Virus record (IMG/VR): IMGVR_UViG_3300015024_000001
Location: 67,992-131,991 of that record
DNA: 64,000 bases
From: a virus
Reading direction: 5' to 3' (one strand)
The notes under the pieces are model-generated. The model saw only the letters and a list, made by a program, of their open reading frames with translations. It searched no databases and was not told the DNA's origin. This document shows, in pieces, positions 3,835-38,173 of the stretch (the stretch's first letter is position 1; every line of letters begins with the position of its first letter). A program made the position numbers and the translations under genes.

Positions 3835-4599
3835 TCATTTGCCAAACCTCAATAACTCTCTGATTTTTGCTATAAATCTAAAACGTTCAGATTTTGTACG
3901 CTTGGTAAGAAGATTATACATTGTATCTAATTTTGTCCCAAGTGTATTATATGTATTTTCTGACCATACTTTATCAAACTGTTCAAGAGAAGCATATTGA
4001 ATTACAACAGCACCATAGGGTTGTTTAGTATCTTCATCTTTTAGCACACGTATGTAATGACCAAACATACCTGTATCTAGTATAAAATTCTTATGTTTAC
4101 GGCTTATGATAGCATTATGTAAATGTACATGTATAAATTCTTTATCAGCCCCAAGACTTTTATAGAGATTGTAATCACTTTCTGTAAGTACTGATGGTAC
4201 TAGAATTTCACGTAGTTCTTTAATAATAGGTTTAATACCTACTCGTGTAGCTTCTGACATAGCACTAAGACGTTTCCAATGATATACCGTATTTGATACA
4301 CCATTATGTAAAAAAAAGAAAACAACACGATCAGCATTGGTTATTTCACGCATTTCTACAGCGAGGTCATCCATAGCATCAATAATAGATATGTCAATAC
4401 GATCAAGAGCAGTAAGAGCTATGTTAAGACTCTTAGTACTTGATTCAATAAGTTCTTTAACTTTAACAACACACAGTAAAGCTAATAATACTGTATTTAA
4501 AGATGCTGTTGGTATTGTTATATGAAGACCAAATGCTTCAATAGTAGGTAAGTAATCAGGTTTGATTTCTATAATGGGTTTGTTGATATCTGTTTGCAT
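3835..4599 (-). CDS. membrane-anchored hypothetical protein, possibly holin-like with a GAF-like domain
   Basis: N-terminal hydrophobic helix and ADRVVFFFLHNG segment; function is inference. Confidence 0.4.
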   Translation of the reverse strand: MQTDINKPIIEIKPDYLPTIEAFGLHITIPTASLNTVLLALLCVVKVKELIESSTKSLNIALTALDRIDISIIDAMDDLAVEMREITNADRVVFFFLHNGVSNTVYHWKRLSAMSEATRVGIKPIIKELREILVPSVLTESDYNLYKSLGADKEFIHVHLHNAIISRKHKNFILDTGMFGHYIRVLKDEDTKQPYGAVVIQYASLEQFDKVWSENTYNTLGTKLDTMYNLLTKRTKSERFRFIAKIRELLRFGK

Positions 4600-24547: not shown

Positions 24548-25488
24548 TGTTTTCTTATTTACAAGCAATCGCCCAAGCTAAAAAGAAAAATAATCTTGCT
24601 AGCAGTTATTTAATAAGTGGCACTGTCAACGCTACTCTTCTTGCACTGTTAGTAATTCCTAGCACAGTTTTTCTGAGCAATCTTCAATTTACTATTTTAG
24701 TATTAGAACTAATTGTAGTTGTTATCTCACTTCTTACAAATCTTTATATGGGAGAGATTCTTATTAAAGACACTGATAAGAAGAAGTATGGGGCTTTGAT
24801 TGCAGTGGTAGGTTTGCAGAGCTTCGTAAACAAATATTGGTTAGGCACTAGACTTTACTCTATTTTGTCGGTTGCTATAGTTACTGTAAATATGATTAGT
24901 ATTGGTTGGATTGGTCAAGCAGTATTTTTTATACTTGCAAGCGCTCTGACTATATCTACCTTATATAATTTCCTTGACCAGCTACCTGAGTTTGTTGCTA
25001 AATTAAATATAAACGAAGATGATATTACGGTGTAATTATGCCTCTACTAAATCCTGAAGAAGACCAACCCGAACGACCTAGATATTTAGGTGAATTATCA
25101 ACAAAACTTCCTGCTGGTGCTACGTTTAAACAAGCCTCTGAACATATGCTAACGTGTCAACATATAGATACGTTGACATTAACAGAGGTACGCACTGTAG
25201 CAAAGGCGTTAAGCGCCCTCTATGTTGGTATGCAAGTTACTGTATCAGCTATGTCCAAACAAGATTTTTCTTTTCCTACAAATATTGACGGAGTATAAGA
25301 TGACTAAACAACAACTTTCTTTCTATGTTGCTTGTGTTGCACTAGCTTTTGGTGTGTTCTTCTTTGTAGTTGGTGGATGGTCAATTGGACAAATTGTACC
25401 ACAGTTTATTGAAAATGCTAATATTGCACAAATCAAAGGTTTGTTGTGCCTCATTGTAGCTGCTGTTCTATATACAAATACAAAATAA
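24547..25488 (+). CDS. three small genes, two of them membrane proteins (24547-25035, 25038-25298, 25300-25488)
   Basis: Tightly packed ORFs with hydrophobic helices. Confidence 0.55.
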
Positions 25489-26858
25489 TGTATCAAGCTA
25501 TCATAACTCCTGTCCAAGCCATCTTGCCACATCCTAATGCAGACAAGTTGGAAATTGCTGTAGTTTGTAACAATCATATAATCGTAGGTATTGATAACTA
25601 CAAAACAGATGACCTTGTTATCTTTTTTGAGGTAGATGGCTGTCTCAGTAAAGAATACTGTGAAGCTAACAATCTATATGAACGTTTTGAAGAAGTTAAT
25701 GGTGTCAAAACTCGTATTAGTACAGGTTACTTAGATAGTAACGGTAGGATTCGTGCATTGAATCTGCGGTCTTATAAATCTAACGGTTTAGTAATGCCTC
25801 TGCGATCACTCGATTTTCTAGACTTTGATCATTCTATACTGAGAGAAGGTTATGCTTTCACATCTCTAGGTAAGGTAGAAATCTGTAAGAAGTATGAAAC
25901 ATCAGCTACAAAATTGGCACGTGCAACAGCCAAGAAGGATAAACTAAAGCTAAAGTACAGCACTGTGTTTCACGAACACGTAGACACACAGAACTTTCGC
26001 AGGAACGTCAATCAAATACCCATTGGCGCAACTGTTACTATTACTGAAAAAATCCACGGCACATCAGGTAGAGTATCGTTAGCCTATACAAAACAAGAGG
26101 TATATAATCCATTCCTTTCTATGGTCTTCAATCGCTTAAACATGCCAACCCCTTGGCAACCAATCAACAAAGCGTGGCAGTTCCTACGTCAGACTATAGA
26201 AGAAAAAGGTAAGACAACCACAAAAGGTTATACGTACCAACATGGTACTCGGCGAGTTCTACTCAAGAGAGATAGCCTTGATAAAGGTTACTATGGTAGT
26301 GATAGTTTCCGTTGGCAAATAGCTGACCGTCTATTACCACTACTCCATAAAGGAGAAGAAGTCTACTATGAAATTGTAGGTTGGAGTTCTCCTGAACGAA
26401 CCATCATGCCTATTCACGCCACATCTATTACTAGTGACAAGAAGTTTATCAAGCAGTATGGTTCGGAAATTACTTACAACTACGGTGTACCTAATGGTAC
26501 AGCAAAGGCATTTGTGTATCGCATAGCAGTAACTAATGAAGATGGTCACCAATGGGAGCTTCCTTGGGCTTCAGTTAAAGCTCGTTGTGCAGAATTTAAT
26601 GTAGACCATGTACCTGAACATTTCTACCGTTGCTATGATAGATATGATGGTAACTCTGAAACTCTTATAACAGATGTAGAGTATCTCTCCCTAATCTCTA
26701 CTTTCACGAATCAATTCCCTGAAGGAGTTGTAGTACGTGTTGACTATAAAGGTACAACATGGTTCTTAAAAGAGAAGAACTGGTACTTTCTAGCAATGGA
26801 GGGTTTCTCGAAAGATAAGCCTGATTATGTAGATACAGAGGAGATTGAAACAGATTAG
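25488..26858 (+). CDS. RNA ligase, DRB0094/Rnl5-like
   Basis: N-terminal PHPNADKLE OB-like domain, TEKIHGTS adenylation motif, EGVVVR, LKEK. Confidence 0.85.
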   Translation: MYQAIITPVQAILPHPNADKLEIAVVCNNHIIVGIDNYKTDDLVIFFEVDGCLSKEYCEANNLYERFEEVNGVKTRISTGYLDSNGRIRALNLRSYKSNGLVMPLRSLDFLDFDHSILREGYAFTSLGKVEICKKYETSATKLARATAKKDKLKLKYSTVFHEHVDTQNFRRNVNQIPIGATVTITEKIHGTSGRVSLAYTKQEVYNPFLSMVFNRLNMPTPWQPINKAWQFLRQTIEEKGKTTTKGYTYQHGTRRVLLKRDSLDKGYYGSDSFRWQIADRLLPLLHKGEEVYYEIVGWSSPERTIMPIHATSITSDKKFIKQYGSEITYNYGVPNGTAKAFVYRIAVTNEDGHQWELPWASVKARCAEFNVDHVPEHFYRCYDRYDGNSETLITDVEYLSLISTFTNQFPEGVVVRVDYKGTTWFLKEKNWYFLAMEGFSKDKPDYVDTEEIETD

Positions 26859-27190
26859 AAAAAGCTATATCCAAGGTTATAATGGTAGTCCTGATATTGA
26901 TTCATGGTTCTTGGATACTCAAGATTCTAACCCTGACTATCTTATGAGCTTTGAATCATTCGCTAATGCTTGGTTATTTGTAGTTTCTCAAGTATTAGTA
27001 TAGATTACAGACTTGACCGTTAGATACGGCGGGAAGGTCATTTCATACTCATTATTGTTTATTTACGCAGTAGACGTATCCTACTGTTTTTTTATTAAGA
27101 GTTTTTATGTTATACACAGATGATGATAACTACATTGATATTTAGTAAAATGATAAGAACTGAAATTCATTGTTGTGAAAAGGTCAACTT

Positions 27191-27739
27191 ATGAACCTAT
27201 TCTTTCTACATACTGACCCTCAAGAAGCAGCACAACTGTATTGTGACCAACACTTAGGAAAGATTCGTTTAGAGGCATCACAGATGTTATCAACAGCCTA
27301 CCATTTATCACCACATGTAACCGTAGAAGATAGGCAAGCAATGTGGTATGTACAGAACAACCGCATCTACAACAAGGCTTTTATTAACCACCCCACGTCT
27401 GTGTGGGTTCGTGCAGCACAAGATAATTTTGATTGGACATTAGTACACCTAAAAGCATTACAAGCTATCTGGGTTGGTGCAGGTCATAACGGTGCTGTAA
27501 CTGAGACACTGATCACAAGCTTCAATAAAACATCTTCTCTTCTACGGTTGCCTGTAGGTATGACAGATGTACCTCTCGCTATGTACGATGCAATCAAAGC
27601 GAAATACAAACCAAAAGAACCTCTACCCATAGCTGTACAAGCGTATAGAGAGTATATGTGTGCAAAAGTATTCAAGAATGATAAACGTCCTACGTGGACA
27701 ATAAATCAACAACCTGAGTGGTATCATGCTTCAAATTGA
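27191..27739 (+). CDS. pyrimidine-dimer DNA glycosylase/endonuclease V-like family protein
   Basis: MNLFFL..DP..AA...CDQH..K..LE..QMLSTA..HPTSVWVR. Confidence 0.8.
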   Translation: MNLFFLHTDPQEAAQLYCDQHLGKIRLEASQMLSTAYHLSPHVTVEDRQAMWYVQNNRIYNKAFINHPTSVWVRAAQDNFDWTLVHLKALQAIWVGAGHNGAVTETLITSFNKTSSLLRLPVGMTDVPLAMYDAIKAKYKPKEPLPIAVQAYREYMCAKVFKNDKRPTWTINQQPEWYHASN

Positions 27740-27859
27740 ACTTGATGCTAAATATGTAGAACTACTTAAGGAAACTACAAAACATTCACAACATATGATT
27801 GCCACTATGTTAAGTTTAGCTATTAATAAACCAGAGATATTTATTAAAAAGGAGTAGTT

Positions 27860-28303
27860 ATGCAACCAGTACTTATTATTATACGCGGTGTATCAGGTAG
27901 TGGGAAGTCAACTTTCGCTGAATGGTTGGTAGATAATCTTTTAGTATTTGAAAATAAAGACAGGAGCAATAGAGAATACATACGTAAATTTGAGGCAGAC
28001 CAATGGTTTGTTGACAATCAAGAAGAGTGGAATCCTCGTTATTTACATACAGCACATGAATGGTGTCAGGCAGAGGTTAAGAAGTCACTACAAGATGGTT
28101 ATATTACAATCGTTAGCAATACAACCACAACTAAAAAAGAGTTGCAACCCTATGTCAAGATTGCTACGAATTTAGGAGTGCAGTACTTTGTGTTGATATC
28201 TGACTCTGACTACAACAATGTACATGGTGTTGCTAAAGATAAAGTAGGGAAACAAGCCGAGCGATTCTACTTTAACAACACAGCAATGCAAGATAGTCTG
28301 TAG
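27860..28303 (+). CDS. AAA_33 polynucleotide-kinase-like P-loop protein
   Basis: IIRGVSGSGKST, FEAD, AHEWCQ, IVSNT, NVHGV. Confidence 0.85.
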   Translation: MQPVLIIIRGVSGSGKSTFAEWLVDNLLVFENKDRSNREYIRKFEADQWFVDNQEEWNPRYLHTAHEWCQAEVKKSLQDGYITIVSNTTTTKKELQPYVKIATNLGVQYFVLISDSDYNNVHGVAKDKVGKQAERFYFNNTAMQDSL

Positions 28304-28693
28304 ATTAGTGACTTCCTATCTATCCTGTTGTTACACAAGATAGATAAGAGGTTACTCTATACAAAATAAGTAATTGTGATGGACAGTTCTTCCTTTTGTG
28401 TAACAGGCTTACGAAACTGGGATACATACATAAGCCACTCTCTTTCTATGGTCTTACTTTAGAGATTAGATACACCATAGATTGCACAAAGTAAATCTCG
28501 ATCTTATAGTGACTAATACCCTACTCAGGTAAGGTATACAGTGAAAGTGACAGTGTTCAGCAAGTGCGCTAAAGTAACAAAGTAGCAATATCTTCAGTAA
28601 CTAAAATCCAAGTAGCTGTAAAGAACAACTGTGCAATTGTTACCACTATAATCTCAATCTCATACACACAACAACAACCAAAAACAATCAATC

Positions 28694-29062
28694 ATGGCTA
28701 ATTTTCTTACTGATCTTATCTCTCGTTTCTCTACTTCTGGAGTTGCACCAGCACCCACCGCAGTATCTTTCACAGTGGAATCTGAAAACTCGGCAGAAGT
28801 AAGGTTTGGTTTTGCAGTAATTGGTCGTCGAAATTTTGATCTTAATCAAACCTATGCCGCCTTTGCAGCAGAACAAGCCGCAGCATCTGGTATTACCCTA
28901 CAAGATGCATATACTCCTCAGTTTATTGTTGGTACAGAAACGTTTGTAGTTGATCCCACACTTACTTTTGCTGAACTGAATGCGAAGTATAGTGTTACTG
29001 CTCAAACACCTGTCCAAGTTAGTATTCCTGATCCTGAGCGTCCTGTTGGTCGTTTAGGTTAA
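28694..29062 (+). CDS. putative ubiquitin-like protein
   Basis: Small, beta-rich, ends ..PVGRLG*; heads the JAB-E2-E1 cluster. The fold is inferred. Confidence 0.6.
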   Translation: MANFLTDLISRFSTSGVAPAPTAVSFTVESENSAEVRFGFAVIGRRNFDLNQTYAAFAAEQAAASGITLQDAYTPQFIVGTETFVVDPTLTFAELNAKYSVTAQTPVQVSIPDPERPVGRLG

Positions 29063-29069
29063 TCATCAC

Positions 29070-29100
29070 ATGGGTAGGTTTGTACCTACCCATTCTTTTT
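29070..29100 (+). terminator. intrinsic terminator after the Ubl gene
   Basis: TGGGTAGGT-TTGT-ACCTACCCA-TTCTTTTT. Confidence 0.75.
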
Positions 29101-29117
29101 GTATTTAGAGATTAAAA

Positions 29118-29498
29118 ATGGATATGCAATTATTTATTAATGGTTTGGCATCTCAGTGGCAAAAAGAAAGAGCTGAAACACAGCTAACTCTTAAAGGTTT
29201 AATTAATAGATTGTCTGAGCTTAATCAAGACTTAGAGGTTGATGGTATTAACCAAGCACATAGTTATCGTGGTTACTACCATGACCTTGCATTTGAACTT
29301 TCAGGTACAAAACGTAAAGTATCTGACATCTTAGCAGATGTAATAGCTTGCAAGGGTGAAACTTTTGTAGGATATAAAGGAGGTGATTTTGATATGACAA
29401 ATAATACTCCTGTTTGGATTGCTGAATATGGTGATATAGGTATGAAAATTATATCTGTAACAGATAACGGTGAATTTATAACTGAGGAAGATAAATAA
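29118..29498 (+). CDS. hypothetical phage protein
   Basis: HSYRGYY.DLAF..F.GYKGGDF.M...TPVWIA segment; stop overlaps the JAB start. Confidence 0.7.
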   Translation: MDMQLFINGLASQWQKERAETQLTLKGLINRLSELNQDLEVDGINQAHSYRGYYHDLAFELSGTKRKVSDILADVIACKGETFVGYKGGDFDMTNNTPVWIAEYGDIGMKIISVTDNGEFITEEDK

Positions 29499-30448
29499 TG
29501 AATACAACTAATATTTGGCAGCTAAAAAATGGTCTATACATAGAACCAAAAATCGCTGAACTTGGTGGGCATTATGTGTATAGTGATTATATTGATAATG
29601 ATGATCCTAACAAGATTGATCCCGCAATCATGCAGGAATTTGAAGGTAATCCACAAAACAAAATCCCAAACCACTTGTGGAATAAAATGGTGACGTTTTT
29701 CGTACATTATTTAGAGCAGAGAACAGAGGTTGAGTGCCGTTATTACAAGCGTGGAAGTAACTTTATTTGTGTTGTTGGTAGTCAATTAGTAACTGGAGGT
29801 TCTGTTGCATATAACTATAATCTACCTTTTTATGACCTTGATGGTGTACTTTACACACGTGAGTCATTAGTAGATAATGGTTGGATTTTATATGGACAAT
29901 TTCACCTTCATCCTTTCGATATGCCATCACCTTCCTCAGTGGATGACACTAATGAAATGAAGACTCCTTTGCTATATGGTATTATTTCGATACCCCATGG
30001 TAGACTTTCTACCATGGACTACAGGATACGTACTACTCTTGTAGCTAATAATGGGCATGAGAACTATCGTTATTTTCCTCAATCTTGGGATTTCATTGAC
30101 CTTCCTATCAATGATGAATTACAAACGTATACACATACTGCGTATGCACCTATTTGTGAATCACAAGTAAAACGTATGGTATATAGACCACAGCAAGTGA
30201 CATATGCAGTTGGTAGTACAAAGTGGTTACAACCTATACAGAGTGGTGTGACAGCTAAAAGCTTGTCAGAACGTTTAGTTGTAGCTTTACGAAATATACT
30301 ACTAGCTGATTCTAAAATTACAGTAGGAGACATAGAAAAAGAGTTGCCAGCAGTTTTATCAGAGCTTTTAACAGAGGATTCAAAATATTCAGAGCTTTTT
30401 ACATATGATGTAGACGTAGCTGATCCTTATTATTATAGGTGTGACTAA
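29498..30448 (+). CDS. JAB/MPN+ metallo-isopeptidase
   Basis: Upstream Glu (TEVEC) and FHLHPFDMPSPSSVDD (HxH-x7-S-x2-D). Confidence 0.8.
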   Translation: MNTTNIWQLKNGLYIEPKIAELGGHYVYSDYIDNDDPNKIDPAIMQEFEGNPQNKIPNHLWNKMVTFFVHYLEQRTEVECRYYKRGSNFICVVGSQLVTGGSVAYNYNLPFYDLDGVLYTRESLVDNGWILYGQFHLHPFDMPSPSSVDDTNEMKTPLLYGIISIPHGRLSTMDYRIRTTLVANNGHENYRYFPQSWDFIDLPINDELQTYTHTAYAPICESQVKRMVYRPQQVTYAVGSTKWLQPIQSGVTAKSLSERLVVALRNILLADSKITVGDIEKELPAVLSELLTEDSKYSELFTYDVDVADPYYYRCD

Positions 30449-31122
30449 TGGTAGAATATCTTATACCATCTCACTGTGAAGCGGCTATTATATTTGAACA
30501 AGCTATCATGCTTGTACTACAACCTATTACTGTGCCATTTTACTACACCGTTCAGGTGTCTAATAGTGATGATTTTTTTATTGAAAACTGTGTAGATTGT
30601 ACTCTACGTGGAAGTTCTTGTTATAGAGCTGGAGCTTTAAACACACGTTGTATGTTAGATCATTCTACTCGGTTGTATGAGGACATAAGATGCATACAAA
30701 TGCCATTACCTCAACATATGCTGATATTCGCTGAAAATTTAGATATTCCTCCTAGTTTTGCTTATTACAGTGATGGTATTTTACTACCGTTACGTATAAG
30801 TAATATAGGTAGTGCTGGTATTTGGTGTACTGGAGATGTGTCTTTCAATAAATTAAATCCTTCAAGCATATATAATGCTTACATGCAATCACTACATAAT
30901 AAGGATCTCACAGGTAGAGATGCGAAGAACTATGAAAGTTATTTACAAACTATATCTAAAGACTCTTCTAAAATATTTGAAGGATATCCACTAGATATTA
31001 CTAGTTATGGTAGTATCCAAAATGTTATACATACACCTACAACTATTACGTGGGGTTCTTCCGTATCAAAAGATGAAAGTTATTACAATATAGAAGGTAC
31101 AGGATATGTTAAAATTCAATAG
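30448..31122 (+). CDS. prokaryotic E2-like protein (Prok-E2_D/PRTRC-B-like)
   Basis: PLPQHMLIF and PLRISNIGSAGIWCTG (N..G..C.G motif). Confidence 0.65.
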   Translation: MVEYLIPSHCEAAIIFEQAIMLVLQPITVPFYYTVQVSNSDDFFIENCVDCTLRGSSCYRAGALNTRCMLDHSTRLYEDIRCIQMPLPQHMLIFAENLDIPPSFAYYSDGILLPLRISNIGSAGIWCTGDVSFNKLNPSSIYNAYMQSLHNKDLTGRDAKNYESYLQTISKDSSKIFEGYPLDITSYGSIQNVIHTPTTITWGSSVSKDESYYNIEGTGYVKIQ

Positions 31123-31909
31123 CGCTGTTATAGCTTTAGTAGGTTGTGGAGGCACTGGTTCATATCTTTGTGACCACTTAGGTCGTTTATTTGGTTCTCA
31201 TGGGGAACTACGTAGAATAAATCCCCTTTTATTTCTACTTATTGATGCTGATGTAGTCTCTGAATCTAATATAGTTCGGCAGAACTTTAATTATAGAGAG
31301 ATTAATGAGCAAAAAGGATTAACGCTACAGCATAGATTAGAACAACGATATAATGTACCATCAGTAGACTTCTGGGCTTCCTTTGCTAATAAGAAACTTC
31401 TAGAAAAATTATTTAAGAAGACGGCTAGAAACCCATTGATAATTATATCTTGTGTTGATAACCATAGAACACGTAACAGAATCATGTCTACTTTAAAACC
31501 AGATCCTGATTCTTATGTAGGAGCTAGAGAGACTAACTGGCTTTACCTTGATGCTGGGAATACTGTCACTGATGGTTGGGTTAGTGCTATGGGTGTATAT
31601 AGTGGTCAACCATTTGGAGTTGATATGCGTATGCAGGACGCAGCTATACGTAGTAATACTATAGATGAAGCTCCTACTCTTAATATGAGTGGAAGAGAGA
31701 TACAAGGTTGTGGTGCGGTAACAAGTTCACCAGAAACCTACTTCGATAACCAAATGAATAGCTATTTATTGGCTAGTCAACTAAGATCTATAGTATTGAA
31801 AGGTAAAGGTTATGGTTTGTTAGCACACAAGAGAAGTGATCTTGATGCAGAAGATTGGATGACACAGAGTTATGAAAACCACTATTTAGCTCCTTTCACT
31901 CTCCCTTAA
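31106..31909 (+). CDS. ThiF/E1-like adenylyltransferase
   Basis: VGCGGTGS, DADVVSESNIVRQNF, SCVDNHRTR, YLDAGN, candidate catalytic Cys in IQGCG. Confidence 0.9.
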   Translation: MLKFNSAVIALVGCGGTGSYLCDHLGRLFGSHGELRRINPLLFLLIDADVVSESNIVRQNFNYREINEQKGLTLQHRLEQRYNVPSVDFWASFANKKLLEKLFKKTARNPLIIISCVDNHRTRNRIMSTLKPDPDSYVGARETNWLYLDAGNTVTDGWVSAMGVYSGQPFGVDMRMQDAAIRSNTIDEAPTLNMSGREIQGCGAVTSSPETYFDNQMNSYLLASQLRSIVLKGKGYGLLAHKRSDLDAEDWMTQSYENHYLAPFTLP

Positions 31910-33451: not shown

Positions 33452-33940
33452 TTGAAAATAATTAAAGGAGATATATTACAAGTCTTTGCACAAGCTGAAC
33501 AAGCTTTTTTATTGCATGGTGTCTCTTGTCAATCTGTACTACATAAGGGACTTGACAAACAAATTATTACAAGTTACCCTCTATTACTCGATCAACATCG
33601 TAGAAATATACGACAGTTCGGTACTGAAATGTTAATAGGGTCTTGTACGTTTTTTGCTACAGAAACAGGGCATAAAACAAAAGATATTGTCAACCTATAT
33701 CAACAGTTAGAAGTTGGTCGTCATAAGCAGCAAATTGATTACGATTATTTTCGCTATGCTTTGGAAGACTTCTGCAAATATCTTACTGATGGTTTAGAAC
33801 TTGTACCTATCTATATACCAGAGGGTATCGGATCAAATAATGCTGGAGGTGATAAAAAAATTATTCTTTCAATCATTGAAGAAATCTTACCTATGGCAAT
33901 ACTAGTGGAGTACAAAGATGCAAATATACAGCAAACATAA
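33452..33940 (+). CDS. macrodomain (ADP-ribose binding/hydrolase-like) protein, divergent
   Basis: IIKGDIL, LHGVSC, IVNLYQQ, IPEGIGSNNAGG. Confidence 0.7.
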   Translation: MKIIKGDILQVFAQAEQAFLLHGVSCQSVLHKGLDKQIITSYPLLLDQHRRNIRQFGTEMLIGSCTFFATETGHKTKDIVNLYQQLEVGRHKQQIDYDYFRYALEDFCKYLTDGLELVPIYIPEGIGSNNAGGDKKIILSIIEEILPMAILVEYKDANIQQT

Positions 33941-34640
33941 AGACTACTATGATGGTCAACTTATACAGATATCTTCACTTGATAGTTTTGTAAGACAAGC
34001 AGAGTGTAAAGAGAATGTAGCAGTTAGCGCACTACCACAAGATATTTTAAAGCTATCTCTAGATAATAGATTACAATATCTTTTTTGTTGTGGTGTGCTA
34101 TATCCTTTTATTGAAAATACTGTCACAAAAGAAGTAGAAAGATATGACTATAAAGGTAAACCTGTCTCATCGTCTGTTACAAATACTTCTTTTCTATGGA
34201 CTTACAGTGAAATAAAAAACTACCTTCAAGAACACGATCAATTATCTTTTTGTTTTGAGGAAGAACTTGAAGCTGTTTTCCACTTAAATATGAGTGATTT
34301 TACATTATTAAACAGTATACAGTTAGTATCTGGTGTTTGCTACTTTGTGTTTAAGCCTCATCACACATATAGATATCCAAATAGATTTGGTAGAAGTGCT
34401 ATTGCTGGAAACCTATTGACATATCCTTCATTACAAGATATACAAGCTTATAAAATACTCGATCCTTATACAGTAGCCCAACAAATTGATTACTGGTTAG
34501 GAAACATTTTTGTATCTGATAACTGTCTCTCATTACAAACTAACAATGAGAAGATAGTAGCATATGGTCACGATCTTCATGTGTCTTTTAGAGATAGTTC
34601 AGGAAAAGGTAAAAAGAAAAATGCTAGAAAATCAAATTGA
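33918..34640 (+). CDS. hypothetical phage protein
   Basis: I.SK.KDYYD start; DPYTVAQQI..EKI..YG.D...SFR end. Confidence 0.7.
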   Translation: MQIYSKHKDYYDGQLIQISSLDSFVRQAECKENVAVSALPQDILKLSLDNRLQYLFCCGVLYPFIENTVTKEVERYDYKGKPVSSSVTNTSFLWTYSEIKNYLQEHDQLSFCFEEELEAVFHLNMSDFTLLNSIQLVSGVCYFVFKPHHTYRYPNRFGRSAIAGNLLTYPSLQDIQAYKILDPYTVAQQIDYWLGNIFVSDNCLSLQTNNEKIVAYGHDLHVSFRDSSGKGKKKNARKSN

Positions 34641-35075
34641 AATATATGAAAATAAAGTCTACAAAACTAGACAACAACTATTATATAGCGCACAACCATT
34701 AATTAATAACTTTTGTAAACAGTATGAGCTTACTTTTACTGCGGGTATGGGTAGTTTCTCATTTAATTTCAGTAAAAAAGACCATTCTGACAGTTATATA
34801 TGAGGAGTTTTTAGATGAATTAAATCCAGAACTATTTGCTCTACTAAACTATCAATTGGAAGATCATAACGCTCTAGGAACTAGTCTTGAAAACTACACT
34901 CAACAAGTGATTGAGTTTGTTTATATATATAGAGATAACAACACAGATAAATTAACTATACATAAAGAACCAACAGATTTAGTCAGTATTACTAACTATG
35001 GTGATATGTCTTTAAAACTTGCAAATACAGTACTAGAAAGACCTGATGCTGTAGAATTATTAAACTTTTACTAAG

Positions 35076-36182
35076 ATGAACAGAAAAGAAGTAGAAACAA
35101 ATACTATATTACTATGTCTAACTGGAAGTAGACTGTATGGTATTGATAACATTGATTCAGATTATGATTATAAAGGTATATGCATACCTCCGCTAAAATA
35201 CTTCTTTGGTAATTTTGGTTTTGAACAATTTGATGATTTTAAAGATGAATTTCAAGCTAAAAACTACATATATTCTGTACTAACAAATACAGATTCACAA
35301 ATATATAACATTAAAAAGTATATTAATTTAGGTTTGCTTAACAATCCTAATATTCTTGAACTTTTATGGGTTGCACCTGAACATTATATCGTAAAGACAC
35401 CATTAGCAGATCGACTAATTGCTCTGAGAGAACTATTTCTTTCTACGAAAGTTTATTATAGCTACAGTGGATATGCTTATTCTCAGATCAAACGTGTAAA
35501 AACACATAGAGGTTGGTTACAAGCTTATCGTGCTGATTCTGCATTTTTTAATATACCACCTAACCCTAAAGACTATGGTTTGGAAGAAAACCCACTACGC
35601 AAAGAACAGTTAAACGCTTTTCTTGAGTTTTTATATATCTTGATTGATGATGCTGCTCAGTACCATGAAATTCGTGATACTATTTTTCCACATATTGACT
35701 TCAAAGGGTTATTAAAACAGTATAAAATTAAACCAGAGTTATTAGATGCTGTACAGTATTATACACGTGGTACAGATGACTTCATGACTTTGTTACATAA
35801 TACACAAAGCTATAGGCAGGCTAAACAAGAGTATGATGCGTTTCATAGCTGGAAAACAAACCGTAATAGTAAACGTGCAGCCTTAGAAGAGAAAGTAGGT
35901 ATGGATTGTAAGCATATAGCTCATGCTTATCGTCTGTTAAAATCAGGTATTGAAATTCTTAATGGTCAAGGTGTAATCCCTGATCGTCGTATAGCTGGTG
36001 ACTCTACTTATATTCGACAAATTCGTAATGGAGAGGTTGAGTATGATGATATTATGCAACAAGTATATACTTTGATGATTGATCTTGAAATAGCAAAAGA
36101 CAATACAAAACTACCATATCAACCAGATCGTAAAACCATAGAAAATGAAATGATTGCAATTATTAAGGAGTATCTATTATGA
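35076..36182 (+). CDS. Pol-beta-family nucleotidyltransferase (YcgL/RlaP-like)
   Basis: GSRLYG...DSDYDYKG, NNPNILELL, GYAYSQ, D.KH..H..RLL. Confidence 0.85.
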   Translation: MNRKEVETNTILLCLTGSRLYGIDNIDSDYDYKGICIPPLKYFFGNFGFEQFDDFKDEFQAKNYIYSVLTNTDSQIYNIKKYINLGLLNNPNILELLWVAPEHYIVKTPLADRLIALRELFLSTKVYYSYSGYAYSQIKRVKTHRGWLQAYRADSAFFNIPPNPKDYGLEENPLRKEQLNAFLEFLYILIDDAAQYHEIRDTIFPHIDFKGLLKQYKIKPELLDAVQYYTRGTDDFMTLLHNTQSYRQAKQEYDAFHSWKTNRNSKRAALEEKVGMDCKHIAHAYRLLKSGIEILNGQGVIPDRRIAGDSTYIRQIRNGEVEYDDIMQQVYTLMIDLEIAKDNTKLPYQPDRKTIENEMIAIIKEYLL

Positions 36183-36988: not shown

Positions 36989-38173
36989 ATGAAAGCTAGG
37001 TATCAATACAGATTTTACCCAACTAACCAACAGCAAAAGAGCCTAGCTCAATTGTTTGGCTGTGTTCGCGTGGTCTGGAATGATGCTTTAGCACTTTGCA
37101 AGGCTTCTGCTAAGGCAATTGGTTTTAACAAACTTTCAGCTATGCTTACTCAGTCTAAAAAGACTGAAGAGAGGCAGTGGCTTAAAGATGTATCGTCTGT
37201 ACCGTTGCAGCAATCCCTAAGATATTTAGATGTCGCTTATCGCAACTTTTTTAATTCTCTAAAAGGAAAGCGAAAAGGTAGAAAAGTTGGTTCGCCAAAA
37301 TTCAAGAGAAAAACTAATAATCAATCTGCTGAGTTTACCAAAGCAGCATTTTCTCTTTCTAAAGATGGTGTTTATTTAGCCAAGATAGGAGATATCAAGC
37401 CAGTATGGTCTAGGAAATTACCGTCAGAGCCTAGCTCTGTAACGGTAATTAAAGATTGTGCTAACCGATATTTTCTTAGCTTTGTAGTGGATATAGAGCC
37501 AGAGCATATTGAACCGATTAATCCATCGGTAGGGATCGATCTAGGGATCAAAACTTTTGCTGTACTCAGTACTGGCGAAAAGTTTCAAAGCCCTGATTAC
37601 TCCAAATTGGATAAGAAGGTCAGGAAGTTGCAACGTAAGCTAGCAAAGCAATCTAAAGGCTCTAACAGACGGCACAAAACCCGACTGAGAATCGCCAAAA
37701 AACATAACAAGATTTCTGATACTCGCAACGACTTTCTGCATAAAGTTTCTACTGAAGTGGTACGCAAAAACCAAGCAATCACTTTAGAAGACCTCAATGT
37801 TTCTGGCATGGTCAAAAATCGCAAACTTGCACGGGCAATTAGTCAGCAAGGATGGAGAGAGTTTAGAACTCTTTGCGAAGCCAAATCTGAAAAGTATGGC
37901 AGAACTTTTTCAACGGTTAGCCGTTGGGAACCTACCAGTCAAATTTGCTCAGATTGCGGATATCAATGGGGTAAATTAAATCTTAGTGTTAGATCTGTCA
38001 CTTGCATAAATTGTGGAGCTATCCATGATCGTGATGAGAATGCAGCTAAAAATATAGATAAAGTCGGGATAGGGAACTGCCACGACTCTAAACGAACGCG
38101 GAGAGATAATAAGACTACTTCGGTAGCGAATCTCAGTGATGCGTTAAGAATTACCGCTGCTTCAGCTCGGTGA
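36989..38173 (+). CDS. tnpB: RNA-guided endonuclease TnpB
   Basis: YRFYPT HTH, GIDLG, LEDL, CSDC..CINC zinc finger, DRDENAAKNI; RuvC D-E-D intact. Confidence 0.95.
   Translation: MKARYQYRFYPTNQQQKSLAQLFGCVRVVWNDALALCKASAKAIGFNKLSAMLTQSKKTEERQWLKDVSSVPLQQSLRYLDVAYRNFFNSLKGKRKGRKVGSPKFKRKTNNQSAEFTKAAFSLSKDGVYLAKIGDIKPVWSRKLPSEPSSVTVIKDCANRYFLSFVVDIEPEHIEPINPSVGIDLGIKTFAVLSTGEKFQSPDYSKLDKKVRKLQRKLAKQSKGSNRRHKTRLRIAKKHNKISDTRNDFLHKVSTEVVRKNQAITLEDLNVSGMVKNRKLARAISQQGWREFRTLCEAKSEKYGRTFSTVSRWEPTSQICSDCGYQWGKLNLSVRSVTCINCGAIHDRDENAAKNIDKVGIGNCHDSKRTRRDNKTTSVANLSDALRITAASAR

What the first reader, a model, noticed from the sequence alone, without database searches (positions are those of the whole stretch)
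28694..31909. Phage-encoded ubiquitin-like conjugation system (Ubl, JAB, E2, E1)
Seen: a small protein ending VGRLG with its own terminator, one spacer gene, then translationally coupled JAB (HLHP..S..D), E2-like (N..G..CTG) and ThiF/E1 (GCGGTG, NIVRQ, CVDN, DAGN, candidate Cys) genes, all with catalytic motifs intact. Established: this set parallels the PRTRC/Prok-E2_D cassettes. The characterised bacterial E1-E2-JAB systems I know of (CBASS Cap2/Cap3, Bil) are host anti-phage systems. Here the cassette sits among phage genes with phage-like composition and no ParB or sulfur-transfer genes. Inference: the virus tags host or viral proteins, or uses the JAB to remove host Ubl marks. The Ubl already ends in Gly, so the JAB is more likely a deconjugase than a maturase, and the terminator would give excess Ubl.
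Basis: partly seen in the sequence, partly recalled or inferred. Interest (0 to 1): 0.9.

Follow-up and report, generated by a model that had tools for sequence, protein, structure and literature searches.

The report
Phage ubiquitin-like tagging gene cassette
A large virus of cyanobacteria carries a conserved set of four genes that looks like a complete kit for attaching a small ubiquitin-like protein to other proteins and removing it again; it is a very diverged relative of a gene set predicted in 2006 and apparently never tested, and what it tags is unknown.

Summary
The window is part of a 131,991-bp virus record. It encodes, in order: a 122-aa protein ending VGRLG; a hairpin plus U-run terminator; an inserted gene; a JAMM/JAB peptidase with an intact E..HxHx7SxxD motif; a 224-aa protein; and a ThiF-type E1. 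The last three overlap start to stop.

The 122-aa protein models as a beta-grasp, with its best matches to ubiquitin-like domains, one of them bacterial BilA (Z 8.6). The 224-aa protein models with high confidence (pLDDT 89.8). Its only coherent fold matches are UBC E2 enzymes (Z 5.3-4.9). N119 and C127 are invariant in 24 relatives.

Ubl-JAB-E2-E1 is contiguous in 7 of 7 related phage loci, and none has the inserted gene.

By sequence it is a distant relative of the PRTRC cassette (operon type 6d of Iyer et al. 2006), but it fails all curated PRTRC thresholds and lacks ParB and the alpha-helical protein.

The role (host takeover, counter-defence or phage competition) is untested. GenBank phages already carry annotated PRTRC cassettes. 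This scan has noted phage-borne PRTRC-like cassettes before on other DNA. I class it as a new variant of a known kind.

The parts
28694..29062 (+). Ubiquitin-like modifier candidate, 122 aa. It has a poorly modelled N-terminal ~30 residues, a beta-grasp at 30-114 and a tail PDPERPVGRLG ending in Gly122.
   Evidence: ORF. 19 homologues at 49-100% identity. 17 of 19 aligned sequences end in Gly. AF2 model pLDDT 64.9 with b-b-a-b-b-a-b order. The Foldseek PDB top rows are ubiquitin-like and other beta-grasp domains, best E 3.7e-3. In VIA-align the 50 rows shown are almost all ubiquitin-like or related beta-grasp domains, Z 8.6-7.2, including BilA chain 8tyz_B (Z 8.6, rmsd 2.7, 80 aligned). No Pfam, PHROG, PADLOC or Prok_Ub match.
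29070..29103 (+). Intrinsic terminator-like hairpin (10-bp stem, 4-nt loop) plus U-run, directly after the Ubl stop codon.
   Evidence: A hairpin plus U-run at the same place in 5 of 5 loci folded (window, L003, L009, L011, L012), with different stem sequences; z -4.27, -2.20, -4.21, -2.82, -3.90.
29118..29498 (+). 126-aa gene of unknown function (phrog_12889). It is a lineage-specific insertion between the terminator and the JAB gene, not part of the conserved cassette.
   Evidence: PHROG hit 5e-19. tblastn finds it in 0 of 7 related loci, where the Ubl and JAB genes are 60-80 nt apart.
29498..30448 (+). JAMM/JAB metallopeptidase, 316 aa. Core about 60-200, with E77/E79 and H136-x-H138-x7-S146-x2-D149, followed by a conserved C-terminal extension.
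   Evidence: Motif invariant in 20 of 20. Profile hit to PDB 2kks_A across the HxH..S..D stretch, E 0.0043. Five PADLOC JAB models at E 0.0076-0.04. Prok-JAB 11.9 bits, E 0.017, below the cut-off of 25. Cap3 and desampylase models at E about 0.07.
30448..31122 (+). E2-like protein, 224 aa. UBC-like fold over residues 1-176, candidate catalytic Cys127 eight residues after invariant Asn119, and a four-Cys insert (C48-x2-C51-x6-C58-x9-C68) that is probably a zinc site.
   Evidence: AF2 pLDDT 89.8, pTM 0.81. In VIA-align wide the top 9 of 48,161 chains are all UBC E2s, Z 5.3-4.9, rmsd 3.3-3.6 over 109-115 residues. In pdb_via the top 8 of 994 are all E2/UEV, Z 5.3-3.1, and the next is 2.4. Invariant residues in 24 of 24. 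hhalign to the phage Dina Prok-E2_D protein aligns NIGSAGIWCTGDV with FNVWERGEICTGNV, E 4.6e-5, probability 68.6%. One distant relative, P0056, passes Pfam Prok-E2_D at 27.8 bits against a cut-off of 25. The protein itself has no Pfam match.
31106..31909 (+). ThiF-type E1 adenylating enzyme, 267 aa, single domain. Carries GCGGTG, D47, R58-Q59, K70, D118 and D149-x-G-N; candidate catalytic Cys202.
   Evidence: Pfam ThiF 6.3e-11, 42.3 bits against cut-off 28.1, residues 3-126. NCBIfam PRTRC_ThiF is the best hit at 8.8e-22, 77.6 bits, below the cut-off of 144.75. 22 PADLOC Cap2-type E1-E2 models, best 1e-7, covering the E1 part only. PDB profile hits: TcdA 1e-4, ThiF 1.5e-3, UBA5 and MccB about 0.05. 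C14 and C202 are the only invariant Cys in 5 close relatives. A Cys lies within one alignment column of C202 in the three GenBank phage E1s.

Best explanation
This is a phage-encoded, minimal ubiquitin-like protein-conjugation pathway of the PRTRC type (operon class 6d of Iyer et al. 2006).

Proposed steps, all inferred by analogy with characterised E1/E2 systems:
1. The E1 (31106-31909) binds ATP and adenylates Gly122 of the 122-aa beta-grasp protein.
2. The modifier passes as a thioester, possibly via E1 Cys202, to Cys127 of the E2-like protein.
3. The E2 carries an invariant four-cysteine (probably zinc-binding) insert that may select substrates. It transfers the modifier to lysines of target proteins without a separate E3.
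4. The JAMM peptidase reverses or edits the marks rather than maturing the modifier, because the modifier is already made with a free C-terminal Gly.

A conserved terminator after the modifier gene should give more modifier than enzymes. The three enzyme genes are translationally coupled.

The cassette lies in the plus-strand replication and nucleotide/RNA-repair arm, not in the structural arm. I therefore infer that it acts inside the infected cell on host or phage proteins (takeover or counter-defence) rather than in virion assembly.

Shown here: gene content, motifs, predicted folds, conservation and synteny. Inferred: every chemical step, the target and the role.
For: - Phage genome: a virus record of 131,991 bp, 95% complete. 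Major head, portal and endolysin genes are on the minus strand at 24-62 kb. RNA ligase, kinase, phosphatase, nucleotidyltransferase, primase/helicase, DNA polymerase and RNR lie around the cassette on the plus strand.
- Ubl: beta-grasp model. An independent Atlas model also has beta-grasp neighbours. The terminal Gly is kept in 17 of 19.
- E2: a confident model whose only coherent matches are UBC enzymes. N119-x7-C127 is invariant in 24 of 24. The active-site stretch aligns with a bona fide Prok-E2_D protein.
- JAB: full JAMM motif invariant in 20 of 20.
- E1: ThiF domain over the Pfam cut-off, closest to PRTRC ThiF.
- Synteny: Ubl-JAB-E2-E1 is contiguous in 7 of 7 related loci. By their identity values these represent about four lineages: L002/L003, L009/L010/L013, L011 and L012.
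- A terminator after the Ubl gene in 5 of 5 loci, with differing stems.
- No ParB, rhodanese, ThiS/MoaD or cysteine desulfurase in the genome.
Against: - No biochemical or expression data exist.
- The Ubl model is only of middling confidence (pLDDT 64.9), and the Ubl has no sequence match to any Ubl family.
- The E2 fold matches are modest (best Z 5.3). The tool warns that Z under 8 can reflect a common arrangement. Foldseek alone found nothing below E 0.39.
- I could not check in three dimensions that Cys127 sits where the UBC catalytic Cys sits.
- The best solved-structure relatives of the E1 by sequence are tRNA-modifying TcdA proteins (E 1e-4), and the neighbours are RNA-repair genes. A nucleic-acid substrate is therefore not excluded.
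- No E3 and no target were identified.
- The inference from genome position to role is weak.
Confidence: 0.65

Rival explanations
1. The chemistry is the same, but the role is defence carried by the phage. Like the bacterial Bil system, the cassette would tag structural proteins of competing phages that co-infect or superinfect the same cell, sabotaging their assembly.
For: [quoted passage not shown] The Ubl model matches BilA as well as any other Ubl (8tyz_B, Z 8.6). That phages often carry defence systems is my own knowledge and comes from no call.
Against: The E1 is a 267-aa single-domain ThiF, unlike the BilD architecture of tandem inactive and active adenylation domains plus a CYS domain (PMC10557695, passages). 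By sequence the system is closest to PRTRC, not to Bil. In all 7 related loci it sits at a fixed place between the same flanking genes, which looks like a core gene set rather than a mobile defence island. The genome has no tyrosine integrase, so long-term protection of a lysogen is unlikely.
Confidence: 0.15
2. The key activity is the JAB peptidase acting as a counter-defence deconjugase. It would strip host Ubl-type marks (Bil Ubl, or Cap2-conjugated CD-NTase), with the Ubl, E1 and E2 serving as decoy or regulator.
For: The JAMM motif is intact. There are weak matches to Cap3 (E 0.076) and to PADLOC JAB models of CBASS (E 0.0076-0.04). The Ubl needs no maturation. The neighbourhood holds RNA-repair genes of a kind that I recall as counter-defence genes.
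Against: All four genes are conserved together, and E1 and E2 keep their catalytic residues. That would be unnecessary for a lone deconjugase. A look at two Pseudanabaenaceae genomes found only one sub-threshold Prok-JAB match, which tells nothing about host Ubl defences.
Confidence: 0.1
3. This is not protein tagging. The E1 would activate the small protein as a sulfur or acyl carrier (ThiS/MoaD-like), or act directly on tRNA (TcdA-like), as part of the neighbouring RNA-repair or modification module.
For: The best solved-structure sequence relatives of the E1 profile are TcdA (E 1e-4) and ThiF (E 1.5e-3). RNA ligase, a PNK-like kinase, a phosphatase and a nucleotidyltransferase lie within 6 kb. 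JAB plus ThiS/MoaD plus E1 operons without an E2 exist for sulfur chemistry (Iyer 2006, Table 1 rows 4a-4e, passages read).
Against: The genome has no rhodanese, ThiS/MoaD family match or cysteine desulfurase. An E2-fold protein with an invariant Cys is always present. The E1 scores far better against PRTRC ThiF (77.6 bits) than against ThiF or MoeB models (42 bits or less).
Confidence: 0.07
4. It is a maintenance or partition module, as PRTRC has been labelled in plasmids, ICEs and temperate phages. It would help an episomal phage genome to segregate.
For: The closest named family is PRTRC. It has been described as a ParB/ThiF 'partitioning cassette' in Burkholderia phage AB2 (PMC13366799, passages).
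Against: The genome has no ParB and no tyrosine integrase. The phage has its own replication machinery and a virulent-type layout. The cited paper itself says that the function has not been studied.
Confidence: 0.03

Closest known systems
PRTRC cassette (ParB-Related, ThiF-Related Cassette; NCBIfam TIGR03736 and the Pfam families Prok_Ub, Prok-E2_D, Prok-JAB, alpha-hel2, PRTRC_E). This corresponds to operon type 6d of Iyer, Burroughs and Aravind 2006. An example is Ralstonia phage Dina gp02-gp07.
   Same: Separate genes for a small Ubl, an E2-like protein with a conserved N..G.C.G motif, a JAB peptidase and a ~265-aa single-domain ThiF E1, with the E1 gene last. The E1's best family hit is PRTRC ThiF. 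The E2 active-site stretch aligns with Dina's Prok-E2_D protein. It is carried by mobile elements including phages.
   Different: - Every curated threshold is missed: E1 77.6 against 144.75 bits; Prok-JAB 11.9 against 25 bits; no Prok-E2_D or Prok_Ub match.
- ParB, the alpha-helical protein F, a detectable DUF2016 domain (which Dina's JAB protein carries) and, by the gene content of the cassette, protein E are all missing. PRTRC_E was not searched genome-wide.
- The gene order is Ubl-JAB-E2-E1 instead of Ubl-F-E2-JAB-E1.
- The Ubl ends at its Gly, whereas Dina's Prok_Ub protein continues about 60 residues beyond the domain.
- The E2 carries a four-Cys insert that is absent from the Dina, D69 and Arash proteins aligned beside it.
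Bil (BilABCD) antiphage ubiquitination system of bacteria.
   Same: Four separate genes for a Ubl, an E2, a JAB deconjugase and an E1. The Ubl model superposes on BilA (8tyz_B, Z 8.6, rmsd 2.7, 80 residues). Thioester chemistry through an E2 Cys is expected.
   Different: BilD has tandem inactive and active adenylation domains plus a mobile CYS domain (PMC10557695, passages). This E1 is a 267-aa single domain. Bil is encoded by the host and acts against phages. No sequence-level match to Bil was seen in any search here.
Type II CBASS Cap2/Cap3.
   Same: An E1 Rossmann domain (PADLOC E1-E2 models, best 1e-7) and a JAB with faint Cap3 similarity (E 0.076).
   Different: Cap2 is an E2-E1 fusion that conjugates the CD-NTase itself rather than a free Ubl (PMC11601603, introduction). 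Here E2 and E1 are separate genes and a free Ubl is present. The PADLOC matches cover only E1 residues 4-122.
JAB and E1 genes of Vibrio phage D69 (with D181 and D148) and Salmonella phage Arash, with a weakly E2_D-like gene upstream in D69 and an unmatched gene upstream in Arash; all unannotated as such.
   Same: Large phages with a ThiF-type E1 about 29-31% identical to this one and an adjacent Prok-JAB gene. D69 also has a gene with a sub-threshold Prok-E2_D match (20.5 bits against a cut-off of 25).
   Different: The order is (E2)-JAB-E1. The small ORFs directly upstream do not end in Gly. The proteins aligned as E2s have no four-Cys insert. tblastn with this phage's Ubl, JAB and E2 finds nothing in 50,697 phage records at E <= 0.1.

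Membership tests
PRTRC / Iyer 2006 operon type 6d | E1 passes the PRTRC ThiF model (TIGR03736, cut-off 144.75 bits) | tested here: not met
   It is the best-scoring family, but at 77.6 bits, E 8.8e-22, covering residues 8-159 only.
PRTRC / Iyer 2006 operon type 6d | E2-like protein of Pfam Prok-E2_D (PF14460) | tested here: inconclusive
   No direct match at E <= 1. A distant family member, P0056, passes at 27.8 bits against a cut-off of 25; that was 1 of 10 relatives scanned. hhalign of the 24-sequence profile to Dina's Prok-E2_D protein gives E 4.6e-5, probability 68.6%, over 34 columns around the Cys.
PRTRC / Iyer 2006 operon type 6d | JAB of Pfam Prok-JAB with the N-terminal alpha+beta domain (DUF2016 in phage Dina) | tested here: not met
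   Prok-JAB 11.9 bits, E 0.017, against a cut-off of 25. DUF2016 has no match in the genome at E <= 1. hhalign to Dina's JAB protein finds nothing. The JAMM motif itself is complete.
PRTRC / Iyer 2006 operon type 6d | Ubl of Pfam Prok_Ub (PF14454) | tested here: not met
   No match at E <= 1. hhalign to Dina's Prok_Ub protein gives probability 0.3%.
PRTRC / Iyer 2006 operon type 6d | ParB-related protein and the alpha-helical protein (alpha-hel2, PRTRC F) in the cassette | tested here: not met
   ParB_N has no match in the whole 132-kb genome. alpha-hel2 has no match. The four genes are contiguous in 7 of 7 relatives with no room for further genes.
Ubiquitin-like conjugation systems in general (Ubl + E1 + E2 + deconjugase) | Modifier with a beta-grasp fold and a free C-terminal Gly | tested here: met
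   Model topology and fold matches (Z 8.6-7.2 to Ubl and related beta-grasp domains). 17 of 19 aligned sequences end in Gly. The model confidence is only middling (pLDDT 64.9).
Ubiquitin-like conjugation systems in general (Ubl + E1 + E2 + deconjugase) | E2 with a UBC fold and a catalytic Cys downstream of a conserved Asn | tested here: met
   pLDDT 89.8. The top 9 of 48,161 and the top 8 of 994 chains are E2/UEV, but Z is only 5.3. N119 and C127 are invariant in 24 of 24. The equivalence of C127 to the UBC Cys is inferred from spacing and order, not from a superposition that I could inspect.
Ubiquitin-like conjugation systems in general (Ubl + E1 + E2 + deconjugase) | E1 adenylation domain with a nucleotide-binding Gly motif and a catalytic Asp | tested here: met
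   Pfam ThiF is over the cut-off. GCGGTG, D47, R58 and D118 are invariant in close relatives. D118, R123, D149, G151 and N152 are invariant in 8 of 8 sequences, including the Dina, D69 and Arash E1s. The assignment of roles to these residues is recalled from ThiF and MoeB.
Ubiquitin-like conjugation systems in general (Ubl + E1 + E2 + deconjugase) | ATP-dependent adenylation, thioester relay and isopeptide formation | not testable with these tools
   This needs biochemistry.
Bil (BilABCD) | E1 with tandem inactive and active adenylation domains plus a CYS domain | tested here: not met
   The E1 is 267 aa with one ThiF domain. The BilD architecture is taken from PMC10557695 (passages).
Type II CBASS Cap2/Cap3 | E2-E1 fusion protein acting on a CD-NTase | tested here: not met
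   E2 and E1 are separate genes. The PADLOC E1-E2 models match only the E1 protein, within residues 3-122. I did not search the genome for a CD-NTase.
ThiS/MoaD-ThiF/MoeB sulfur-carrier systems | ThiS/MoaD-family carrier with sulfur-transfer partners (rhodanese, cysteine desulfurase) | tested here: not met
   ThiS, Rhodanese and Aminotran_5 have no match in the genome at E <= 0.1. The controls rang in 12, 13 and 14 of 14 genomes.
TcdA (tRNA ct6A dehydratase, E1-like) | Full-length similarity to TcdA | tested here: inconclusive
   TcdA is the best PDB sequence hit of the E1 profile, but only at E 1e-4, 25 bits, over residues 3-94, which is the shared Rossmann part.

The most novel reading that the evidence does not exclude
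A virulent cyanophage runs its own ubiquitin-style tagging pathway as a weapon. Early in infection it attaches its Gly-ended Ubl to host proteins, for example defence or housekeeping proteins, to inactivate them or mark them for destruction. An E2 with a built-in zinc module acts as its own E3, and a JAB keeps the phage's own proteins unmarked. This would be the prokaryotic-virus counterpart of the ubiquitin hijacking known from eukaryotic viruses, and the mirror image of the host's Bil defence.
Probability: 0.3. Interest if true: 0.85.

Novelty: new variant of a known kind. Interest (0 to 1): 0.6.

Why it matters
The bacterial ubiquitin-like conjugation systems described in the papers I read (type II CBASS Cap2/Cap3, Bil and Bub) are host systems, shown or proposed to act against phages (PMC11601603 and PMC11601596, parts read). 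The PRTRC/6d class was predicted in 2006. A 2026 paper states that its function has not been studied (PMC13366799, passages), and my six literature searches found no functional study of it.

A complete, compact, strongly conserved version sitting in the early/replication arm of an apparently virulent phage suggests that phages themselves use Ubl conjugation. The system is small (122 + 316 + 224 + 267 aa) and the modifier needs no processing. It should therefore be easy to reconstitute in E. coli, so it could give the first biochemical handle on this class.

The four-Cys E2 clade is also a candidate for an E3-independent conjugating enzyme. Its 19 cluster representatives among 1.84 billion proteins carry no source name among the nine I looked up.

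Tried and rejected
1. Complex prediction of E1 (alignment A6) with the Ubl (A1) gave no verdict: score 0.02 against a mark of 0.32. This is no evidence either way.

2. Foldseek of the E2 model against the PDB found nothing below E 0.39. A lone Ubc2 row stood at rank 44. The UBC match came only from VIA-align.

3. Profile searches of PDB sequences with the E2 alignments A2 and A4 gave only chance-level rows. phmmer of the single E1 sequence found nothing at E <= 0.01.

4. hhalign of the JAB and Ubl profiles against phage Dina's Prok-JAB and Prok_Ub proteins found nothing. The eye-catching likeness of the tail RPVGRLG to Dina's RAVGRKG has no statistical support.

Scans of viral contigs with P0053, P0056 and P0049 found no relative. 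Cluster look-ups gave no names.

6. Genome contigs held no relative of the JAB, so no prophage or bacterial copy was found among the species representatives.

7. DNA search of the cassette against GenBank phages gave no match. tblastn with the Ubl, JAB and E2 gave no match at E <= 0.1.

8. No RNA holder was listed among the sequencing runs. There were 5 DNA runs from 3 studies. I did not lay reads.

9. The protein Atlas feature searches gave no usable hit for the Ubl or the E2.

10. Arash gp246 and gp248 are labelled 'structural protein'. I rejected this as evidence of virion association, because the proteome in that paper lists 116 proteins, including ribonucleotide reductases and RNA ligases (PMC10585845, passages).

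11. A look for Prok-JAB in two Pseudanabaenaceae genomes gave one sub-threshold match and was not pursued.

12. Literature searches found no paper on the function of a phage-encoded Ubl-E1-E2-JAB cassette. Supplements were not opened and may list phage-borne operons.

Rows dropped before alignments: P0023 (71-aa fragment) from A1, and P0041 and P0044 (fragments) from A3. The L003 proteins were added to A1-A4.

Full report
**What is there**

The window is bases 67992-131991 of a 131,991-bp IMG/VR virus record that CheckV rates 95% complete.
- 28694-29062: 122 aa, ending ERPVGRLG.
- 29118-29498: 126 aa.
- 29498-30448: 316 aa.
- 30448-31122: 224 aa.
- 31106-31909: 267 aa.

A 10-bp hairpin at 29070-29093 followed by a T-run lies 8 nt after the first stop. 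The next three junctions are two TAATG overlaps and one 17-nt overlap.

**The four proteins**

*E1.* Only the E1 is recognised by Pfam (ThiF, 6.3e-11, residues 3-126). Its best NCBIfam hit is PRTRC ThiF, at 77.6 bits against a cut-off of 144.75. PADLOC Cap2-type E1-E2 models match its Rossmann part only. A profile of five close relatives hits TcdA, ThiF, UBA5 and MccB in the PDB at E 1e-4 to 0.06. GCGGTG, D47, R58, D118, D149-x-G-N and C202 are invariant in close relatives. D118, R123, D149, G151 and N152 also hold in the E1s of phages Dina, D69 and Arash.

*JAB.* The 316-aa protein has no Pfam match. It carries E77/E79 and H136-x-H138-x7-S146-x2-D149, invariant in 20 of 20 relatives, which is the JAMM signature. 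Weak hits agree with this: PDB 2kks_A at E 0.0043, PADLOC JAB models and Prok-JAB at 11.9 bits.

*E2.* The 224-aa protein had only 4 word-index homologues. A profile search of 1.84 billion representatives gave 19. In the 24-sequence alignment, which goes down to 18% identity, ten residues are invariant: C48, C51, C58, C68, H90, N119, G124, C127, G129 and D153. One distant member passes Pfam Prok-E2_D. hhalign aligns NIGSAGIWCTGDV with the active-site stretch of phage Dina's Prok-E2_D protein (E 4.6e-5).

The AF2 model is confident (pLDDT 89.8). Foldseek found nothing. An exhaustive VIA-align search put nine UBC E2 enzymes on top (Z 5.3-4.9, about 112 residues, rmsd about 3.5). A second look at Foldseek's 994 candidates put eight E2/UEV chains on top, with the next at Z 2.4. 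The Z values are modest and the tool's caveat applies. Even so, the fold, the N-x7-C spacing (which I recall as that of the HPN..C motif of classical E2s) and the Prok-E2_D link all agree.

*Ubl.* The 122-aa protein has 19 homologues. 17 of 19 aligned sequences end in Gly. Its model (pLDDT 64.9) has the b-b-a-b-b-a-b order. All leading Foldseek and VIA-align matches are ubiquitin-like or other beta-grasp domains, among them BilA of the bacterial E1-E2-Ubl complex (Z 8.6). The Atlas's independent model gives the same picture.

**Conservation and anatomy**

Seven related loci were fetched: two from viral contigs, one of them a 138,722-bp contig, and five from metagenome contigs. All seven have Ubl-JAB-E2-E1 contiguous and in this order, between the same flanking genes. 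By their identity values they represent about four lineages. None has the 126-aa 'spacer' gene. That gene (phrog_12889) is therefore an insertion in this phage and not a part of the system.

A hairpin plus U-run follows the Ubl stop in 5 of 5 loci folded, and the stem sequences differ. This supports a conserved terminator or attenuator that would give excess Ubl transcript.

The four-Cys insert of the E2 is absent from the Dina, D69 and Arash proteins aligned beside it. It defines a separate clade.

**Setting**

The structural genes (major head, portal, endolysin) lie on the minus strand at 24-62 kb. The cassette lies in the plus-strand arm with RNA ligase, a PNK-like kinase, a phosphatase, a nucleotidyltransferase, primase/helicase, DNA polymerase and RNR.

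The genome has no match to ParB, Prok_Ub, alpha-hel2, DUF2016, rhodanese, ThiS/MoaD, cysteine desulfurase or tyrosine integrase.

The host is probably a Pseudanabaena-like cyanobacterium. A TnpB-type transposase gene in the window is 92% identical to copies in Pseudanabaena cinerea and in a Pseudanabaenaceae MAG.

**Mechanism**

The best reading is a minimal Ubl conjugation pathway:
1. The E1 adenylates Gly122.
2. The Ubl is relayed as a thioester to E2 Cys127, perhaps through E1 Cys202.
3. It is transferred to lysines of targets, which the E2's zinc module may select.
4. The JAB removes the marks.

All chemical steps are inferred. The position among early and middle genes points to action in the infected cell. 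I cannot tell whether the targets are host proteins, the phage's own proteins or those of competing phages. The sulfur-carrier, tRNA and partition readings are weaker, for the reasons given under the rivals.

**Comparison with what is known, and novelty**

The closest known kind is PRTRC, which is operon type 6d of Iyer et al. 2006 (Table 1 read). This cassette works like it but fails every curated membership threshold. It also lacks ParB, the alpha-helical protein and the DUF2016 domain, and it has a different gene order, a ready-made Ubl and a four-Cys E2. It is not Bil (single-domain E1) and not Cap2/Cap3 (no fusion).

Phage carriage is on record:
- Ralstonia phage Dina has an annotated PRTRC cassette.
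- Burkholderia phage AB2 is discussed in a 2026 paper. It states that the function has not been studied and that the cassette was not recorded in phages other than in NCBI accessions (PMC13366799, passages).
- Vibrio phage D69 has Prok-JAB and E1 genes and a sub-threshold Prok-E2_D match. Salmonella phage Arash has Prok-JAB and E1 genes.

This scan's notebook also lists several phage-borne PRTRC-like cassettes on other DNA. Those notes are unchecked. I independently confirmed only the Dina, D69 and Arash cases.

My six literature searches found no functional study. I therefore rate this a new variant of a known, predicted but untested kind. Its interest is moderate to high, because the system is compact, complete and easy to test.

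Noticed in passing
window 28304-28693; L003 3114-3900; L010 918-1783; L011 4698-5592: The non-coding stretch between the kinase gene and the Ubl gene is about 390 nt here but about 800-900 nt in related loci (coordinates). I did not test it.
   Followed up: no
window 29118-29498: A 126-aa gene (phrog_12889, function unknown) is inserted between the Ubl terminator and the JAB gene only in this phage. It is absent from 7 of 7 related loci.
   Followed up: partly
window 36989-38173: A TnpB/IS605-type transposase gene (phrog_506, 1.2e-116) is 92% identical at protein level to copies in Pseudanabaena cinerea FACHB-1277 and in a Pseudanabaenaceae MAG. Most of the 80 best loci listed (of 442 relatives) are cyanobacterial. 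This is a host clue.
   Followed up: partly
window 25446-28303 and 33452-36182: An RNA-repair-like gene set flanks the cassette: RNA ligase (phrog_968), a PNK-like AAA_33 kinase, a phosphatase (phrog_335) and a nucleotidyltransferase (phrog_388).
   Followed up: no
L003 6804-7601 (minus strand): In the related 138.7-kb phage contig, a 265-aa ORF lies directly after the E1 gene on the opposite strand. Its N-terminus reads like a GIY-YIG homing endonuclease, judged by eye only. The window has no such gene there.
   Followed up: no
protein P0007 (Ubl homologue, 135 aa): One Ubl homologue continues for 8 residues (LSLKVVGI) after the RLG end. It may be a natural precursor form that would need JAB trimming, or a read-through or assembly artefact on a 1,486-bp contig.
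   Followed up: no
L005 4001-4942 (Vibrio phage D69, OZ195729.1): The E1 match starts at locus position 4001, but the annotated CDS starts at 4187, and a small opposite-strand CDS is annotated at 3976-4065. The N-terminal GxGxxG part of the E1 therefore appears to be missing from the deposited annotation.
   Followed up: no
L006 (Salmonella phage Arash) 1519-2274 and 3499-4539: The ThiF-type E1 (gp246) and the gene two upstream (gp248) are annotated 'structural protein' in the record. In the paper, that label was given to hypothetical proteins detected in a virion-preparation proteome of 116 proteins that also includes RNR and RNA ligases. I did not see the rows for gp246 and gp248 themselves. 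At most the label suggests that these proteins are made; virion association is doubtful.
   Followed up: partly
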